A DNA stretch of 64,000 nt from Planctomycetota bacterium (lineage in GTDB: Bacteria > Planctomycetota > PLA2 > JAEUHO01), in NCBI GenBank assembly GCA_965223505.1, contig CBDCWP010000034.1, positions 160,001 to 224,000 on the forward strand, given 5' to 3'. Below are positions 3,721-42,331 of this stretch, one piece after another. Position 1 is the stretch's first letter. The number at the start of each line of letters is the position of its first letter. The notes beneath the pieces were generated by a model. It was not told the origin of the DNA, searched no databases, and worked only from the letters and a program-made list of their open reading frames with translations. A program made the position numbers and the translations under genes.

Positions 3721-4284
3721 ATGAAGCGAACGCATCTCGTGCTCATGGTCGCAGCCCTGTTGATGGGAGGCTGCTCGTCCGGCGGGACTGGTGGAAAGGC
3801 GCCCTCGGCAGGGTCGGATACGGGTAGATCGACGAGCGATCCGCGCGTCAAGAGCTTCAAGGGGCAGCCGGCACCGGCGCTCTCGGCCGACGGACGCATG
3901 GCCAGCGCGAACGCGCCCGCCGGACTCGACGGGTTCAAAGGGCGAACCGTGTTCCTCATGTTCGCTTTCCCGCGGTGACCCGCCTGCCGGGCCATGATGC
4001 CCCACCTGGTCAGGTGGCAAGAAACGTACCGCTCCGAAGGCCTCGACATCGTCTACGTCGACGACGGCCGGCGCGACTCGCTCGTCTCCGCACAAGAGAT
4101 GGCGCGCAACAACCCCTTCACCGTCTTCCATGACACCTCCGGCGCGTCGAATCAGACGTACGGGATTCGCGCGTATCCGACCGCCTACATCCTCGACCGG
4201 AACGGCAACGTCATCTGGGAAGGCATCCCCGTCTTCAACACCTTCACCACTGAGGTGGCGATCCTCGCCGCGCTCGCCCGGTAG
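3721..4284 (+). CDS. TlpA/thioredoxin-fold lipoprotein, predicted selenoprotein (UxxC), in-frame TGA at 3976-3978
   Basis: ORFs 3685..3978 and 3994..4284 share a frame; read-through gives FAFPR-U-PAC-RAMMPHL; lipobox-like MGGC; C-terminal YGIRAYPTAYILDRNG typical of TlpA. Confidence 0.85.
3998..4019 (+). promoter_or_regulatory. Candidate bacterial SECIS hairpin
   Basis: CCACCT-GGTC-AGGTGG stem-loop; apical loop starts ~30 nt after the UGA; GGUC loop as in the E. coli fdhF SECIS. Confidence 0.75.
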
Positions 4285-4368
4285 GGGATGGGATAGGGGG
4301 TGGCAGCCCTGATCCTCGGTCGTGCCAAGTGTGTTTACGGCATCAGCCGAGGAAGGAACTGCCACCCC

Positions 4369-5415
4369 ATGACTGCGTACCACGTCGGAATCGACCTGCA
4401 CAAGAGTGTCGCCCAAATCTGCGTCCGTGATGCGAAGGGCGAGATCGAAGAGGAGCGGCGGTGGCGCCTGCCGGATCGAAAGGCGGCCGCGGCGCTGGTT
4501 GCGTTTCTTGGCACCTACGGCGGCGGGCGCTTCGCGGTGGAAGCGTTGGGCTGCAACCGCTGGTTCGTGCTGGCCTGCCGCGAAGCGGGTTTGGAGATGC
4601 TTGTGGTGGACGCCACGAAGCTCGATCTGAAGAAGCAGGGCAAGAAGACGGATCGACGCGACGCCCAGGAGATCTCGCGCCGGCTGTACCTTGGCGACCT
4701 GGACCGCTACGCACTGACCTACTTCGCCACCGAAGCCGAGTTCGGCCAGCGCAAGGTGTTGCGGGTTCGGCATCAGCTCGTTCAGCATCGAACCAGCGTG
4801 CTGGCGCACATCCGCGGCATGCTCAACGCGTACCTGCTGCGAGCGCCGGTGACGCAGCTGTACACCAAGCGCGGGATCCAGTGGCTTCGCGAGCAGCGAC
4901 TGGGTGATGAGAACCAGGATCTGGCGCTGCAGTCGCTGGTGGATGTCGTTGCGGCTCTGCAGGAGCGCATCGAGAAGCTCACCGCTCGAATCCGCGAGTT
5001 GGCCGAGCAGGACGAAGTCTCAGGCTGGATCGTTCGGAATCTGCCACAGGCGGGAGCCCAGACGGCTCTGACGCTTCAAGCTGAGTTGGGTGACGCAACC
5101 CGCTTCCGCGGTGCTCGACAGATCTCGAGCTATGGGGGTGTCGTTCCACGCGTTTCGGCCTCGGCGGATCGAGCGCACCACGGCCGCATGACCAAACGCG
5201 GAAACGCCGAGTTGCGTTGGGTGCTGGGGCAATGGGCGGTTCGGTTGCTGGCCTTCGACCCAGAGGTGAAGGCGTGGGCACAGCCGATGCTCAGGCGCAT
5301 GCACCGCAACAAGGTTCGAATGGCGCTTGCACGCCGGCTACTGGTGGGCGTGTGGGTGATGTTCTCGCGTGGCGAGGTGTTCTCGCTGCGTCGGTGCCTA
5401 GGCCAGGCTGCCTGA
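4369..5415 (+). CDS. IS110-family DEDD transposase/recombinase
   Basis: GIDLHK, AVEA, KTDRRDA (DEDD RuvC-like); C-terminal GVVPRVSASAD...HGRMTKRGNAELRW, ALARRL. Confidence 0.95.
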   Translation: MTAYHVGIDLHKSVAQICVRDAKGEIEEERRWRLPDRKAAAALVAFLGTYGGGRFAVEALGCNRWFVLACREAGLEMLVVDATKLDLKKQGKKTDRRDAQEISRRLYLGDLDRYALTYFATEAEFGQRKVLRVRHQLVQHRTSVLAHIRGMLNAYLLRAPVTQLYTKRGIQWLREQRLGDENQDLALQSLVDVVAALQERIEKLTARIRELAEQDEVSGWIVRNLPQAGAQTALTLQAELGDATRFRGARQISSYGGVVPRVSASADRAHHGRMTKRGNAELRWVLGQWAVRLLAFDPEVKAWAQPMLRRMHRNKVRMALARRLLVGVWVMFSRGEVFSLRRCLGQAA

Positions 5416-5624
5416 GCGAACGCACTGAGAGAGAGGAAGCGAAACCAGGAATCGGACACCAACGGGCGCGTACTCCGGCGGGCCGCTGAGCGCATCAGCT
5501 CGTGTAGGCGATTGAGAGGCGCGTCCGACTCCCCCTCATGACGCCGCCCGAATAGGCGAGCTCGAAAACCCGAGTGGACGGATCCGACCCTGGCGACGCG
5601 GAAAGGACGCACGGCCGACAGAAA
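5416..5624 (+). ncRNA. Candidate bridge/seek RNA of the IS110 element
   Basis: ~210-nt 3' non-coding region with segments matching the target (GTAGG 5504-5508, CGCC 5542-5545) and the donor junction (AAACC 5566-5570, ATCC 5582-5585). Confidence 0.7.
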
Positions 5625-5646
5625 AGGGCTTGCCATTCCCTAAACC

Positions 5647-5710
5647 GGCGACCCTTGTGGTCGCCCAATCGGCCCGTCCCTGATCGAGCGGCCACGAGGG
5701 CCGCCCCGAC
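5647..5710. repeat. REP doublet (first copy interrupted by IS110, second degenerate and inverted)
   Basis: ggcgacccttgtggtcgcccaat ... gagcggccacgagggccgccccgac. Confidence 0.8.
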
Positions 5711-5723
5711 ATCGACCGCCGAT

Positions 5724-6407
5724 TCACGACCGCGGCCGCAGGACCTGTTGCCGGCGCTTGAACCAGAACGGAACGTACAGCAGTGCGTAGAGCACGACCG
5801 ATAGCGCCTCGGCAACGAGGATGTAGTACGGCCACGGTCCGAAGTAGTCGAGCGGCGTCGCCGAATCAGGCTTCTCGCGCAAGAACATGTAGTTCGTGTC
5901 CGCCATCCAATTGACGCCCGCCATCACCAACGCCACGACGTTGACCGCCACGAGCGCACGCCAGACCGCCCCCGGCCGCGGTGGCAGCCCGAAACGGAAC
6001 GCGACGCCCACCGCGGCCACCGTCAAGGCGCCGTGCTTCACGAAGTAGGCGATCACGACCAGCAGATCGCGATGGTCCGGCAGGTCGGGCGTGACGATCG
6101 CGAGAAACGCGCCCGACGCGCCCCACAGGTAGGTGAGCTCGGCCATGAGCCGGTTGCGCGTCAGCAACGCGGCGATCGCAACGCCGACGCTGATGTCGCA
6201 CAGCGCCAACGGCGCCGCAGGACGCCAATCGCCGCCGTTCAGCAGGAACTCGCCGACCGACTCGACCGCGACGCCGAAGACGAGCAACAGTGTGATCACC
6301 CAACGCAGCGGCGTCTCCGGCAGGAACGACGCCCGGACCAAGAACACCGACGCCGCGGCGACGATCGCGACGATGACGCCGATCTCCGACGCGCCGACAT
6401 CGGGCAT
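5724..6407 (-). CDS. YwaF-like (TIGR02206-type) integral membrane protein
   Basis: PLALCD, LAIVTPDL, TNYMFLREKP...LDYFGPWPYY motifs; several hydrophobic helices; start uncertain. Confidence 0.8.
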   Translation of the reverse strand: MPDVGASEIGVIVAIVAAASVFLVRASFLPETPLRWVITLLLVFGVAVESVGEFLLNGGDWRPAAPLALCDISVGVAIAALLTRNRLMAELTYLWGASGAFLAIVTPDLPDHRDLLVVIAYFVKHGALTVAAVGVAFRFGLPPRPGAVWRALVAVNVVALVMAGVNWMADTNYMFLREKPDSATPLDYFGPWPYYILVAEALSVVLYALLYVPFWFKRRQQVLRPRS

Positions 6408-30715: not shown

Positions 30716-30805
30716 GGGCAGCCCTTGTGGCTGCCCGATTGGGCGACCACGAGGGTCGCCCCTACATCCTGATCGTGATTGGGCGACCACGAGGGTCGCT
30801 CCTAC
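30712..30805. repeat. GTAG-family REP cluster (3 copies)
   Basis: gtaggggcagcccttgtggctgccc followed by two inverted gggcgaccacgagggtcgc(c/t)cctac. Confidence 0.9.
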
Positions 30806-41098: not shown

Positions 41099-42331
41099 AT
41101 GTCGATGCGATCGACCGCGATCCTGCTGCTCGTCCTCGCGGTGGTCGCAGGCGCGTTCTTCGCCTTGCGCTCGTGCGACCGCGAAGAGGAGATCCCGCTC
41201 GACGAGCTGTTTCTCCTGTTGGATCAGGTCGAAGAGGGCACGCAGCAAGAGGAGGTCATCCAGCGACTTGGACGGCGCGGCCGCGCCGAACCGGAAGAGA
41301 TGATCCCGCTGTTCATCGAGCGCCTACGCAAGGAACGAGCGGACCCCGAGTCCTCCGTGATCGAGTTCACCGTGCCCTACAGCAAGACGACGCTCGACGA
41401 ATCGGCGCGAAAGCAGGAGCTGAGAGAGATCGGGCTCGCAATGACTCGGCGTCAGAACGTGTACGGGTTCGCCGGGGTCACGGTCCGCGTCGTCGGCCTC
41501 ACGACGGACGGCGACGGCGTGATCCAGCTCGAAGTGCCCCGTCCGTTCGACGAAGCCGAAGAGGCGGCGCTGTTGCAGCAGCGATTGCGGCTCATGTCGG
41601 CGCCTGGTTCGTCGGAGCTGCTGGTCGTCGCGGAACCGCCCGCGGAGGGCCTGAAGCCGCCGTCGCTTTGGGACGGCGACCGCGCTTCGTTCGATGCGTT
41701 CGTCGAGGAAGAGCGCGCGCGCCTGTCCAAGGCCGAGGCCGCAGAGGAGTCGCTCGTTCCCGACAAGCGGGGCTATCGGCTGGTACCGCTGCGGCCCCAG
41801 GCGCCGGGCAAGCCGCCCCGCTTGATCGTCTGTGTCGAGCCGGCGTCGCCGGCGGAGCAGTTCCGCGGCGATAGCTTCGAGCTGATCGACGCGCTCGATC
41901 CGCGCACCAATCGCCTGCTGTTCCAGATGACCCCGTCGCCGGACCGCCTGAAGGACCTCGAGGCGTGGTCGACCAAGCATCTCCACCGCGATGTCGCCAT
42001 CGTCGTGAACGGCCGGGCCGAGGTGGTCGCGCGCGTTCGCCAGCCGATCACGGGGCGCATGGACATCGACGTCGGTCCGCTCAGCGAGGTCAACCGGCGG
42101 TGGGTGGGGTCAGTACGCCGCGCCATCGCCGCGCCGTACCCGCGGGAGATCGAGGGCCGCATCCTGCCGAACGACCCGCGCGAGCTCAGCACGAAGATGG
42201 CCCGCGTGCTCGCCGCGTGTGGCCCGGCCGCTGATCCGTATCTGGAGGCCCTGCAGCAGGAGGGCGGCTCGCTCGCCCGCCGGGCCCGCTGGGCGCGCGA
42301 GGAGCTGGCGAAGGCAGAAGCCATCAAGTAG
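41099..42331 (+). CDS. Membrane-anchored protein with a SecD P1-head-like region
   Basis: N-terminal TM helix; KHLHRDVAIVVNG...RQPITG resembles the SecD head. Confidence 0.55.
   Translation: MSMRSTAILLLVLAVVAGAFFALRSCDREEEIPLDELFLLLDQVEEGTQQEEVIQRLGRRGRAEPEEMIPLFIERLRKERADPESSVIEFTVPYSKTTLDESARKQELREIGLAMTRRQNVYGFAGVTVRVVGLTTDGDGVIQLEVPRPFDEAEEAALLQQRLRLMSAPGSSELLVVAEPPAEGLKPPSLWDGDRASFDAFVEEERARLSKAEAAEESLVPDKRGYRLVPLRPQAPGKPPRLIVCVEPASPAEQFRGDSFELIDALDPRTNRLLFQMTPSPDRLKDLEAWSTKHLHRDVAIVVNGRAEVVARVRQPITGRMDIDVGPLSEVNRRWVGSVRRAIAAPYPREIEGRILPNDPRELSTKMARVLAACGPAADPYLEALQQEGGSLARRARWAREELAKAEAIK

What the first reader, a model, noticed from the sequence alone, without database searches (positions are those of the whole stretch)
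4281..5670. IS110/IS1111 element inserted in a REP repeat, with a readable REP-targeting bridge/seek RNA
Seen: removing 4288-5648 rebuilds a perfect copy of the window's REP (gtaggGGcgacccttgtggtcgccc), and the GG core is present at both ends. The predicted circle junction is taaacc-GG-atggga. The 3' non-coding region holds, in order: GTAGG (5504-5508, target left of core), CGCC (5542-5545, reverse complement of GGcg), AAACC (5566-5570, donor left of core) and ATCC (5582-5585, reverse complement of GGat). Both left guides are followed by CGA. The two target guides flank a hairpin (tgag...ctca) inside a closing stem gctcg/cgagc, as expected for a target-binding loop. Known: IS110-family recombinases use bridge/seek RNAs, located at the 3' end in IS1111-type elements, and some target REPs. 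Inference: this is an intact RNA-guided recombinase with a GG core aimed at a multicopy planctomycete repeat. The guides are short (4-5 nt), so it is their order and symmetry that carry the argument.
Basis: partly seen in the sequence, partly recalled or inferred. Interest (0 to 1): 0.9.

Follow-up and report, generated by a model that had tools for sequence, protein, structure and literature searches.

The report
REP-targeting RNA-guided insertion sequence
This is an intact, recently active IS110-family (IS1111-type) insertion sequence sitting at one fixed position of a multicopy palindromic repeat, with a conserved guide RNA gene behind its transposase gene; it is a new member of a mechanism described in 2024, not a new kind of system.

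Summary
Window 4288-5648 is a 1361-bp element. Removing it restores a GTAG-tagged REP. All 4 full copies in the genome sit at gtagg-GG^cgaYcc. The ORF 4369-5415 is an IS110-family DEDD transposase. The long non-coding region lies 3' of the gene, as in IS1111-type elements.

The interpretation (RNA-guided, REP-aimed) is supported.

I compared 76 distinct homologous 3' regions, 59 of them with both flanks, and found a conserved RNA at 5448-5601.
- **Fold:** it has an outer stem, a target arm and a donor loop. 86% of cells are paired, and the covariation score is 0.39 against at most 0.11 for slid controls.
GUAGG 5504-5508 (left target guide) and AAACC 5566-5570 (left donor guide) covary strongly with the flanks.
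CGCC 5542-5545 and AUCC 5582-5585 are strands of conserved stems and show no covariation with the flanks.
- **Right target guide:** CGGGCCGCU, 5479-5487.
- **Right donor guide:** about 5530-5538, with weaker support.
the gctcg/cgagc and tgag/ctca stems are not conserved.

REP targeting by IS1111/IS110 elements with seek/bridge RNAs is already published (ISPa11, IS621, ISPpu9, ISPpu10). This is a new, divergent member with its own RNA subfamily. No Rfam family matched. Expression and the circular form were not observed.

The parts
4281..4287 (+). Left half of the interrupted REP: GTAGG (left target, the GTAG tag of the REP) plus the left GG core copy (4286-4287)
   Evidence: the same 7 bases precede all 4 full copies and the remnant's left end
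4288..5648 (+).
   Evidence: 4 copies in the genome, 3 at 100% identity and 1 at 99.93%
4288..4309 (+). Left end: 6-nt terminal extension ATGGGA (4288-4293) and subterminal inverted repeat IRL TAGGGGGTGGCAGCCC (4294-4309)
   Evidence: AnGGnATAG is conserved at the left end of the homologs; IRL against the reverse complement of IRR matches 10 of 12 ungapped in the window
4292..4297 (+). GATAGG, a weak -10-like hexamer (TATAGR in most homologs) that would lie 17 nt after the right-end -35-like hexamer in a circle junction
   Evidence: inference; no circle observed
4297..4368 (+). Leader stem: GGGGTGGCAG 4297-4306 pairs with CTGCCACCCC 4359-4368, immediately before the ATG
   Evidence: I25, 10 nt, 100% complementary; arms differ in sequence but stay complementary in homologs; mean longest stem 8.7 against 5.5 shuffled
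4369..5415 (+). Transposase/recombinase gene, 348 aa, DEDD RuvC-like N-domain plus Transposase_20 C-domain
   Evidence: PF01548 5e-11, PF02371 2.8e-19; NF033542, 181.5 bits, cut-off 140; D9, E58, D95, D98, S265 invariant in 38 sequences
5448..5601 (+). Conserved bridge/seek RNA region (match to covariance model R1)
   Evidence: 118.8 bits, E 1e-31 to 1e-33; the only strong hit in the window, and exactly 4 hits in the genome
5452..5461 (+). 5' strands of outer stem P0 (5452-5456 pairs with 5583-5587; 5459-5461 pairs with 5575-5577)
   Evidence: helices 1 and 2
5464..5475 (+). 5' strand of stem P1 (pairs with 5516-5526, A5472 bulged), closing the target-binding loop
   Evidence: helices 3 and 4 (96% paired, all 7 inner pairs with compensatory changes)
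5479..5487 (+). Right target guide CGGGCCGCU, complementary to the top strand of core base 2 plus the right target
   Evidence: 372 of 472 matches against permutation 199 +/- 10; 9 of 9 in L038 and L039; window 6 of 8
5488..5501 (+). Hairpin P2 (GAGC / GCUC) between the two target guides
   Evidence: helix 5
5504..5512 (+). Left target guide GUAGG (5504-5508), then C, then G (core base 2), then AU matching the first two bases of the element's left end
   Evidence: 246 of 295 against permutation 95 +/- 9; column 5511 equals left-end base 1 in 63 of 66
5530..5538 (+). Probable right donor guide UCCCCCUCA, complementary to core base 2 and left-end bases 1, 3, 4, 5
   Evidence: 241 of 413 against permutation 222 +/- 3.9; compensatory changes at left-end bases 1, 3, 4, 5; weaker than the other three guides
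5543..5561 (+).
   Evidence: helix 6 (88.8% paired, 4 of 5 pairs with compensatory changes)
5566..5573 (+). Left donor guide AAACC (5566-5570), then C, G, A
   Evidence: 254 of 295 against permutation 176 +/- 6; AGACC, AAUCC, AAAGA, AGAAG and AAGGA track the right-end sequences of the homologs
5575..5587 (+).
   Evidence: helices 1 and 2
5626..5646 (+). Right end: IRR GGGCTTGCCATTCCCTA (5626-5642), including the -35-like TTGCCA (5630-5635), plus the 4-nt extension AACC (5643-5646)
5649..5665 (+). Right half of the interrupted REP (cgacccttgtggtcgcc)
5687..5705 (-). Second, inverted REP unit (GGCGGCCC variant, preceded by gtcgg) forming a REP pair with the interrupted one

Best explanation
Window 4288-5648 is a functional-looking IS110-family insertion sequence of the IS1111 type.

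Proposed mechanism:
- The DEDD/Ser recombinase (4369-5415) acts with an RNA of about 150 nt encoded just downstream (5448-5601).
- The RNA folds into an outer stem (P0) that encloses two guide-bearing loops.
[quoted passage not shown] - Recombination between a circularised element (…TAAACC-GG-ATGGGA…) and gtagg-GG-cgaccc places the element at one fixed position of the repeat.

Basis of each step:
- Shown here by computation: the site specificity, the family membership of the protein, the conserved fold, and covariation of three guides (more weakly a fourth) with flanks and ends.
- Inferred from published IS1111/IS110 work: that the region is transcribed, that the RNA is bound by the recombinase, that a circle forms, and the strand-exchange chemistry.
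For: - **Site specificity:** 4 of 4 full copies, plus the remnant's left end, sit at gtagggg|…|cgaYccWtgtggtcgccc.
- **Recent activity:** 3 copies are identical and the fourth differs at 1 of 1361 bases.
- **Protein:** PF01548 and PF02371. NF033542 'IS110 family RNA-guided transposase' scores 181.5 bits against a cut-off of 140. D9, E58, D95, D98 and S265 are invariant in 38 aligned relatives.
- **Layout:** 81 nt lie before the ATG and 233 nt after the stop codon.
- **RNA fold on 76 distinct homologs:** 27 pairs, 86.0% of cells paired, 22 pairs with compensatory changes, covariation 0.392 against at most 0.108 for slid partners, and 0 of 500 shuffles as high. There are many G-U pairs, for example U-G 30 at column pair 28/88. 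These would be A-C mismatches on the other strand, so they fit a + strand transcript.
- **Guide-versus-flank permutation test (59 non-redundant homologs, 5000 permutations):**
  - Left target guide: 246 of 295 (permutation 95 +/- 9).
  - Right target guide: 372 of 472 (199 +/- 10).
  - Left donor guide: 254 of 295 (176 +/- 6).
  - Right donor guide: 241 of 413 (222 +/- 3.9).
  - No permutation out of 5000 reached the observed value for any of the four.
- **Unbiased scan:** a scan of all RNA columns against all flank positions puts 5504-5508 against the left target, 5567-5570 against the right end, and 5480-5483 against the right target at the top.
- **Guide order:** the top-strand complement comes 5' of the bottom-strand match, as reported for IS1111 seekRNAs (PMC11187229, section 9 read).
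- **Copy number of the RNA:** model R1 finds exactly the 4 element copies in the genome, each at 118.8 bits.
Against: - No RNA data exist for this organism in the runs offered, so transcription, RNA ends and protein binding are unshown.
- No circle junction or empty site appeared in the contigs of 4 runs. Contigs drop rare forms, so this is not informative.
- The window's own right target guide matches its REP at only 6 of 8 positions, with a C opposite A in the middle.
- The one perfectly matching site in the genome is unoccupied.
- The right donor guide signal is modest, and the left end it reads is nearly invariant. Relatedness could inflate that permutation result.
- Single-sequence folding is no better than shuffled sequence (z +0.88 and +1.56).
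- The register of the right target guide relative to the core varies by one base between homologs, and the scoring allowed for this in the permutations too.
- The transposase is only 24% identical to IS5075/IS4321 and 33% to ISHvo10. R1 does not hit those loci. Homology of this RNA to characterised seekRNAs therefore rests on logic and layout, not on sequence.
Confidence: 0.85

Rival explanations
1. One reading: GTAGG/CGCC flank a target loop closed by gctcg/cgagc, and AAACC/ATCC are the donor guides, in left-then-right order as in IS621.
For: All four motifs and both stems exist in the window sequence. The left-then-right order is the one described for the IS110 group (PMC11208160, passages read).
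Against: The CGCC and ATCC columns do not track the flanks: 104 of 236 against 102.9, and 139 of 236 against 133.5. Both lie in helices that covary as helices, P3 and P0. Much stronger complementarity to the right flank sits at 5479-5487: 9 of 9 in L038 and L039.
Confidence: 0.03
2. Target choice is made mainly by the protein or by the REP hairpin structure, and the conserved 3' region is a structured 3' UTR or DNA-level end-recognition site rather than a guide RNA.
For: The left guides are only 5 nt long. The window's right target guide is imperfect (6 of 8). A target stem-loop acts as an extra specificity determinant for the REP-targeting ISPpu10 (abstract of 10.64898/2026.03.19.712850, read). 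The element's left end is conserved across the family and could be read by protein.
Against: Across 39 different left-target 5-mers and 49 different right-target 7-mers, the two loop sides change in step with the flanks. A protein-only or structure-only model does not predict this. Many homolog targets are not REP hairpins.
Confidence: 0.07
3. The element is a fixed relic: intact in sequence but no longer mobile in this genome.
For: Only 4 copies exist although 208 GTAGG-tagged REPs are available. A perfect guide match is unoccupied. The junction-promoter hexamers are weaker than in most homologs (TTGCCA 5 of 6, GATAGG 3 of 6). No circle or empty-site contigs were seen.
Against: Four copies at different loci differ by at most 1 base in 1361. 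The ORF is open, the catalytic residues are kept, and the RNA scores at full length. This is the pattern of recent transposition.
Confidence: 0.1

Closest known systems
ISPa11 (IS1111 family, Pseudomonas aeruginosa), studied in Siddiquee et al. 2024, PMC11187229
   Same: A DEDD transposase followed by a long 3' non-coding region that yields a seekRNA. It inserts at a fixed position in a REP. In the RNA, the top-strand complement comes 5' of the bottom-strand match (sections 4, 8 and 9 read).
   Different: Different host phylum and a different REP. ISPa11's own sequence was not compared here. The related named IS1111 members IS5075/IS4321 are only 24% identical in protein, and model R1 of this RNA does not hit the IS5075 locus. 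Terminal extensions here are 6 and 4 nt plus the shared GG, against the 7 and 3 nt stated in that paper.
IS621 (IS110 group, E. coli) bridge RNA: Durrant et al. 2024 PMC11208160; Hiraizumi et al. 2024 PMC11208158
   Same: An RNA with a target loop and a donor loop. [quoted passage not shown] It targets REPs. Its natural REP target also differs by one base from what the target loop encodes (ATCAGGCCTAC against ATCGGGCCTAC, passage read), as it does here.
   Different: In IS621 the RNA lies in the left end, upstream of the gene, and the left guides are on the 5' side of the loops and are 8-9 nt long. Here the RNA is downstream, the order is reversed, and the left guides are 5 nt followed by a conserved C opposite core base 1. 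Handshake guides in IS621 sit next to the right guides. Here the extension that matches the other partner sits after the left target guide.
ISPpu9 / ISPpu10 (Pseudomonas putida, REP-inserting IS110-family elements), PMC12288879 and 10.64898/2026.03.19.712850 (abstracts only)
   Same: Multicopy IS110-family elements whose copies all sit in REP or stem-loop repeats. ISPpu9 has a small RNA gene downstream of the transposase gene.
   Different: No sequence comparison was made here. Extra orphan RNA copies are reported for ISPpu9, whereas none were found in this genome (only the 4 element copies).
ISHvo10 (Haloferax volcanii pHV4)
   Same: It is the closest named transposase found: 33% identity over 97% of the query. 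PMC11187229 (section 6 read) describes it as a diverged relative of the IS1111 cluster.
   Different: An archaeal host. It is reported to have long non-coding regions on both sides. Model R1 finds no match in its locus at E up to 10.
GTAG-tagged REPs (Di Nocera et al. 2013, PMC3733652; passages read)
   Same: The target repeat is a short palindrome with GTAG at one end. This super-family is reported also in Planctomycetes.
   Different: That paper links GTAG REPs to RAYT tyrosine transposases, not to IS110-family insertion. Here the GTAG tag is what the left target guide reads.

Membership tests
IS110 family (sensu lato) | [quoted passage not shown] | tested here: met
   both above the gathering score; NF033542, 181.5 bits against cut-off 140
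IS110 family (sensu lato) | Catalytic D-E-D-D residues and the conserved C-terminal serine | tested here: met
   D9, E58, D95, D98 and S265 are invariant in 38 aligned relatives. They are assigned as the catalytic residues by position, by analogy with IS621 D11/E60/D102/D105/S241 (passage). The motif reads G--P----SA rather than SG.
IS110 family (sensu lato) | Sequence-specific insertion with only a short shared core and no ordinary target duplication | tested here: met
   4 of 4 copies at gtagg-GG^cgaYcc, with GG on both sides
IS1111 group | The longer non-coding region lies downstream of tnp | tested here: met
   233 nt 3' against 81 nt 5'; the same holds in the homologs
IS1111 group | Subterminal inverted repeats with short terminal extensions | tested here: met
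   IRL 4294-4309 against IRR 5626-5642: 10 of 12 ungapped in the window. 33 of 63 distinct homologs have at least 9 of 12. The repeat finder did not list it among its 25 longest pairs, because there is no 6-nt exact seed.
IS1111 group | Terminal extensions of 7 (or 6) bp on the left and 3 bp on the right (PMC11187229, introduction) | tested here: inconclusive
   Here they are 6 and 4 nt plus a shared GG that can be assigned to either side
IS1111 group | Transposase of 330-350 aa that clusters with IS1111 relatives in a tree | tested here: inconclusive
   The length of 348 aa fits. No tree with IS110-group references was built. Identity is 24% to IS5075/IS4321 and 33% to ISHvo10.
IS1111-type seekRNA / bridge RNA | [quoted passage not shown] | tested here: met
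   5479-5487 (top-strand complement) precedes 5504-5508 (bottom-strand match)
IS1111-type seekRNA / bridge RNA | A second pair of guides matching the element's own ends (donor) | tested here: met
   Left donor guide: 254 of 295 against 176 +/- 6. Right donor guide: 241 of 413 against 222 +/- 3.9, with compensatory changes at left-end bases 1, 3, 4, 5. The right donor guide is the weakest of the four.
IS1111-type seekRNA / bridge RNA | The RNA is transcribed and co-purifies with the transposase | not testable with these tools
   No RNA run was listed for this sequence
IS1111-type seekRNA / bridge RNA | A circular double-stranded intermediate with joined ends | not testable with these tools
   Only assembled contigs of 4 runs could be laid, and they showed no joints. 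Contigs drop rare forms.
Rfam RNA families | A match to a curated covariance model | tested here: not met
   the only hit in 4000-6000 is a sub-threshold miRNA model on the REP pair (23.4 bits, gathering score 62)

The most novel reading that the evidence does not exclude
This clade of IS1111-type RNAs (76 distinct sequences from several phyla) may use a variant recognition logic.
- The bottom-strand guides are only 5 nt long.
- They are followed by an almost invariant C that cannot pair with core base 1, so that only core base 2 is read. The left core copy is G at base 1 in 65 of 66 homologs, while the right copy varies.
- The left target guide then continues with bases that match the element's own left end rather than the target: 63 of 66 at base 1 and 45 of 66 at base 2.
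- In other words, the target loop pre-encodes the recombinant left junction. This would be a bottom-strand 'handshake' placed differently from IS621's.
- In the subclade containing the window, the left guide is fixed on the universal GTAG tag of REPs. The right guide is re-programmed to different REP stems (window, L037-L039), which would let one lineage move between REP families.
Probability: 0.3. Interest if true: 0.5.

Novelty: new member of a known kind. Interest (0 to 1): 0.3.

Why it matters
The finding gives a clean natural example of RNA-guided, REP-directed insertion outside Proteobacteria. It also gives a corrected guide map supported by covariation, and a covariance model for a bridge/seek RNA subfamily that neither Rfam nor the loci of IS5075 and ISHvo10 match.

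For annotation, such 3' regions should be marked as guide RNA genes. Reading guides from a single sequence by 4-5-nt matches is unreliable: it was half wrong here.

For engineering, the family offers compact 348-aa recombinases with naturally diverse targets (49 different right targets among 59 homologs).

None of this changes the known picture of how IS110/IS1111 elements work.

Tried and rejected
- **Single-sequence folding.** The 3' region folds no better than shuffled sequence, so it was not used.
- **RNAalifold.** On the MAFFT alignment it recovered only 8 pairs of P1. I set the rest of the fold by hand and tested it.
The gctcg/cgagc helix was shifted by one base through my indexing slip. 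One search is the correct test and gives the same conclusion.
- **First REP census.** It used a faulty pattern and is discarded. One search replaces it.
- **Rfam.** No family matched.
- **Model R1 on the IS5075 and ISHvo10 loci.** No match at E up to 10.
- **Sequencing runs.** No RNA holder was listed. Contigs of 4 runs from 1 study showed no joints, no circle and no empty site. Depth inside the element was about 4-5 times the flank in X2, consistent with a multicopy repeat, but contig depth is not a copy number.
- **Promoter scan of the linear element.** No sigma-70-like site in 4200-5760.
- **The repeat finder.** It did not list the imperfect subterminal repeats among its 25 longest pairs.
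- **Earlier notes of this scan.** Nothing was found.
- **Literature.** One search for Planctomycetes plus IS1111 or REP found no paper describing this element. That is one search of the held library only.
- **Not done.** No tree was built to place the transposase among IS110 and IS1111 reference proteins.
Full report
**1. The observation.**

Reading 4100-5850 shows ggtaggGG at 4280-4287. The element follows, from atgggatagg at 4288 to ccctaaaccGG at 5648. Then comes cgacccttgtggtcgccc.

The 19-mer GGCGACCCTTGTGGTCGCC occurs 8 times in the window at 3 or fewer mismatches, against 0.05 expected. It occurs 12 times at 4 or fewer. Ten of those 12 are preceded by gtagg. The other two are the occupied site itself and a gtcgg variant at 5705-5687 on the minus strand. 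Removing 4288-5648 therefore does rebuild a standard copy of the repeat.

**2. Copies and target.**

The window's genome has 44 contigs and 5.15 Mb. It holds 4 full copies. Three are 100% identical and one has 1 difference in 1361 bases. There is also a rearranged remnant on contig C40.

All 4 full copies read …gtagg-GG | element | (GG)-cgaYccWtgtggtcgccc. The remnant's intact left end is also preceded by gtagggg.

Genome-wide there are 359 REP-like sites at 4 or fewer mismatches, and 208 of them have GTAGG upstream. Two main variants exist: GG-CAGCCCT (96 sites) and GG-CGACCCT (78 sites). The repeat belongs to the GTAG-tagged REP type described by Di Nocera et al. 2013, who also report this type in Planctomycetes (PMC3733652, passages read).

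The host is a planctomycete by indirect evidence. A genome that the genome search labels 'same family' (G024) corresponds to a record titled Planctomycetia bacterium (L017).

**3. The protein.**

ORF 4369-5415 (348 aa) starts MTAYHVGIDLHK, as its relatives do. It carries PF01548 (DEDD_Tnp_IS110) and PF02371. It also passes NCBIfam NF033542 'IS110 family RNA-guided transposase' at 181.5 bits against a cut-off of 140. D9, E58, D95, D98 and S265 are invariant in an alignment of 38 relatives.

Relatives are common in metagenomes: 562 proteins at E of 1e-30 or better among the 8000 candidates scored, the best at 79% identity. They are rare among close kin: 6 of 61 genomes including the window's own, the best foreign hit at 53%.

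The nearest named elements are distant. ISHvo10 is 33% identical and IS5075/IS4321 are 24% identical.

**4. Layout.**

The non-coding stretch is 81 nt before the ATG and 233 nt after the stop codon.

The ends carry imperfect subterminal inverted repeats, 4294-4309 and 5626-5642. They match at 10 of 12 ungapped positions in the window. Among 63 distinct homologs, 33 have at least 9 of 12. Outside the repeats lie a 6-nt extension on the left and a 4-nt extension on the right.

Downstream NCR, subterminal repeats and a transposase of 330-350 aa are the features given for the IS1111 group in PMC11187229 (sections 4 and 6 read). No tree was built here to place the protein among reference transposases.

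**5. The RNA.**

I fetched 20 loci from genome contigs and 80 from metagenome contigs. Of these, 87 had at least 220 nt after an intact 3' end of the gene, and they gave 76 distinct core sequences.

The region aligns well across homologs that are only 45-67% identical in protein.

I derived a fold by hand from the alignment:
- P0: 5452-5456 with 5583-5587, plus 5459-5461 with 5575-5577.
- P1: 5464-5475 with 5516-5526.
- P2: 5488-5491 with 5498-5501.
- P3: 5543-5548 with 5555-5561.

On the MAFFT alignment this fold is paired in 86.0% of cells. Twenty-two of its 27 pairs show compensatory changes. The covariation score is 0.392, against at most 0.108 when partners are slid. None of 500 shuffles reaches it.

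The alignment was not fitted to the fold, but I drew the fold from the same alignment. The slid control is therefore the fairer one.

One search was mis-specified by one base and should be ignored.

A covariance model built from the fold (R1, 148 positions) finds the 4 element copies in the genome at 118.8 bits and nothing else. It gives one strong hit in the window. Rfam has no matching family.

**6. The guides.**

For each homolog I located the element's ends from the conserved AnGGnATAG (left) and CTAAA (right) blocks. I then compared fixed alignment columns of the RNA with the flanks.

Of the 76 distinct RNAs, 60 had both flanks long enough, and 59 remained after removing duplicates. Homologs whose right end I had probably mislocated (for example L025, L049, L061, L065, L028) were kept, and they lower the scores.

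Matches for true pairings against 5000 permutations of the pairing:

| Guide | Observed | Permutation mean +/- sd |
|---|---|---|
| 5 nt before the conserved CG at 5504-5508, against the 5 nt left of the core | 246 of 295 | 95 +/- 9 |
| 8 nt at 5479-5486, reverse-complemented, against core base 2 plus right flank (two registers allowed, in permutations too) | 372 of 472 | 199 +/- 10 |
| 5566-5570 against the last 5 nt of the right end | 254 of 295 | 176 +/- 6 |
| 5531-5537, reverse-complemented, against core base 2 plus left-end bases 1-6 | 241 of 413 | 222 +/- 3.9 |

No permutation reached the observed value in any of the four tests. Kinship among homologs inflates such tests. However, there are 39 different left 5-mers and 49 different right 7-mers.

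The closest relatives make the point by themselves. L038 and L039 keep GUAGG, but their 5' loop sides match their different right flanks at 9 of 9 positions.

An unbiased scan of every RNA column against every flank position puts the same three segments on top.

Both lie inside P3 and P0.

The right donor guide is the least secure of the four, because the left end it reads is nearly invariant. Its support is compensatory change at four positions:
- Left-end base 1: U:A in 37 homologs, G:C in 1.
- Base 3: C:G in 55, A:U in 3.
- Base 4: C:G in 58, U:A in 2.
- Base 5: A:U in 26, C:G in 5.

**7. Details of recognition.**

- Both left guides are followed by CG. The C faces core base 1, which is G in 65 of 66 left copies, so it cannot pair.
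- In L111 the core is TG on both sides, and there both left guides read UG.
- The right core copy varies at base 1: G in 51, T in 7, C in 4 and A in 2 of 64.
- The base after the left target guide's CG equals left-end base 1 in 63 of 66 homologs. It is unrelated to the first base of the right target. The next base equals left-end base 2 in 45 of 66. This strand therefore resembles the future left junction.
- I read this as a handshake-like feature. In IS621, handshake guides sit beside the right guides (PMC11208158, passages read). This reading is inference.
- The window's own right target guide implies GCGGCCCG, while the occupied REPs read GCGACCCT or GCGATCCT, giving 6 of 8 for the window.
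- The guide is one central mismatch away from each of the two major REP variants. Of the 208 GTAGG-tagged sites, 184 score 6 of 8, 4 score 7 of 8, and one (on contig C30) scores 8 of 8 and is empty.
- A one-base difference between the encoded and the natural REP target is also reported for IS621 (PMC11208160, passage).

**8. Expression (inferred).**

No sigma-70-like promoter is found in the linear element.

In a circle junction, the right-end hexamer and the left-end hexamer would be 17 nt apart. The right-end hexamer is TTGACW in most homologs and TTGCCA (5630-5635) in the window. The left-end hexamer is TATAGR in most homologs and GATAGG (4292-4297) in the window. Of 63 distinct homologs, 45 have at least 5 of 6 at the -35 position, 44 have at least 4 of 6 at the -10 position, and 32 have both.

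A promoter generated at the circle junction is reported for ISEc11 (PMC11187229, section 7 passage).

A 10-bp stem joins 4297-4306 to 4359-4368, just before the ATG. It is kept by covariation in the homologs. It would occlude the start region in read-through transcripts, but less so in transcripts started at the junction promoter. That role is my inference.

**9. What could not be shown.**

No RNA run was listed for this sequence. Contigs of four runs from one study cover the element without joints. Transcription, RNA ends, RNA-protein binding, circle formation and present-day activity therefore remain untested.

**10. Comparison and verdict.**

Published parallels:
- REP-directed insertion by IS110-family elements.
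- A 3'-encoded seekRNA in IS1111 members, including the REP-targeting ISPa11.
- The two-loop, four-guide logic.
- The junction promoter.

The sources are PMC11187229, PMC11208160, PMC11208158, and the abstracts of PMC12288879 and 10.64898/2026.03.19.712850. Durrant et al. state that covariance models predict a bridge RNA in 93.0% of ISfinder IS1111 elements (passage).

What may be new is at the level of detail: the 5-nt left guides, the unread core base 1, the junction-like extension of the left target guide, and a GTAG-anchored left guide combined with re-programmed right guides in the closest relatives. I did not see supplements of the cited papers. Those of PMC11208160 (predicted bridge RNAs) may already contain members of this clade.

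Noticed in passing
G000 contig C40:226626-227208 (loci L005/L006): A rearranged remnant of the same element. Element bases 561-748 in forward orientation are joined to bases 1-396 in reverse orientation, and both outer ends abut GTAGG-GG. One outer junction reads gtaggGGCGAC|GCAGC. A REP's CGAC replaces the element's internal TGAC next to an internal GG, which suggests an aberrant recombination at a REP-like internal site.
   Followed up: partly
whole genome G000; e.g. window 30717-30800, 45901-45975, 50193-50350, 55162-55180: REP census: 359 sites at 4 or fewer mismatches, 208 of them with the GTAGG tag. Two main stem variants exist (CAGCCC 96 sites, CGACCC 78 sites), often as inverted pairs. 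All 4 insertions are in the CGAYCC type. The single site that matches the right target guide at 8 of 8 (contig C30, minus strand) is empty.
   Followed up: partly
window 3994-4284 (+): A thioredoxin/AhpC-like ORF fragment (weak Pfam hits, E of 1e-5 to 1e-6) ends with a TAG stop codon at 4282-4284, inside the GTAG tag of the interrupted REP. The insertion therefore separates this gene from its downstream REP pair.
   Followed up: no
window 4297-4306 / 4359-4368: A perfect 10-bp stem between the left inverted repeat and the bases just before the transposase ATG. Homologs have different sequences but keep the complementarity (mean longest stem 8.7 against 5.5 shuffled, 76 distinct left ends). It may occlude the translation start in read-through transcripts.
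   Followed up: partly
window 5630-5635 with 4292-4297 (would be adjacent only in a circle): -35-like and -10-like hexamers lie 17 nt apart across the predicted circle junction. They are conserved at fixed positions in most homologs (45 and 44 of 63) and are weaker in the window's element.
   Followed up: partly
L111 (metagenome locus), also L093: In L111 the core is TG on both sides and both left guides read UG instead of CG. In L093 the left donor guide reads UG and the right core copy is TG. This is the only covariation seen at core base 1.
   Followed up: partly
L092, L077 (metagenome loci): Two extra bases lie between the right end and the stretch matched by the right target guide (…TAAACG-GG-TG-TCAGCTGC). 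In other homologs (for example L055, L094) the guide register is shifted by one base. The exact crossover position may differ between members.
   Followed up: no
L037, L038, L039 (metagenome loci, 64-67% protein identity to the window): The closest relatives keep the GUAGG left target guide and GTAGG left flank. Their right target guides match different downstream sequences (9 of 9 in L038, whose flank is another palindromic repeat, and 9 of 9 in L039). This looks like natural re-programming of one guide only.
   Followed up: partly
window 5647-5705: The REP pair forms a long hairpin that gives a sub-threshold Rfam hit to a miRNA model (mir-9242, 23.4 bits against gathering score 62). I take this as a chance match to a GC-rich hairpin.
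   Followed up: no
window 42109-42199 (+): A weak partial match to RNA model R1 (14.1 bits, E 0.0099 with rough calibration, model positions 17-117, several non-standard pairs). It is probably chance in GC-rich DNA and was not examined.
   Followed up: no
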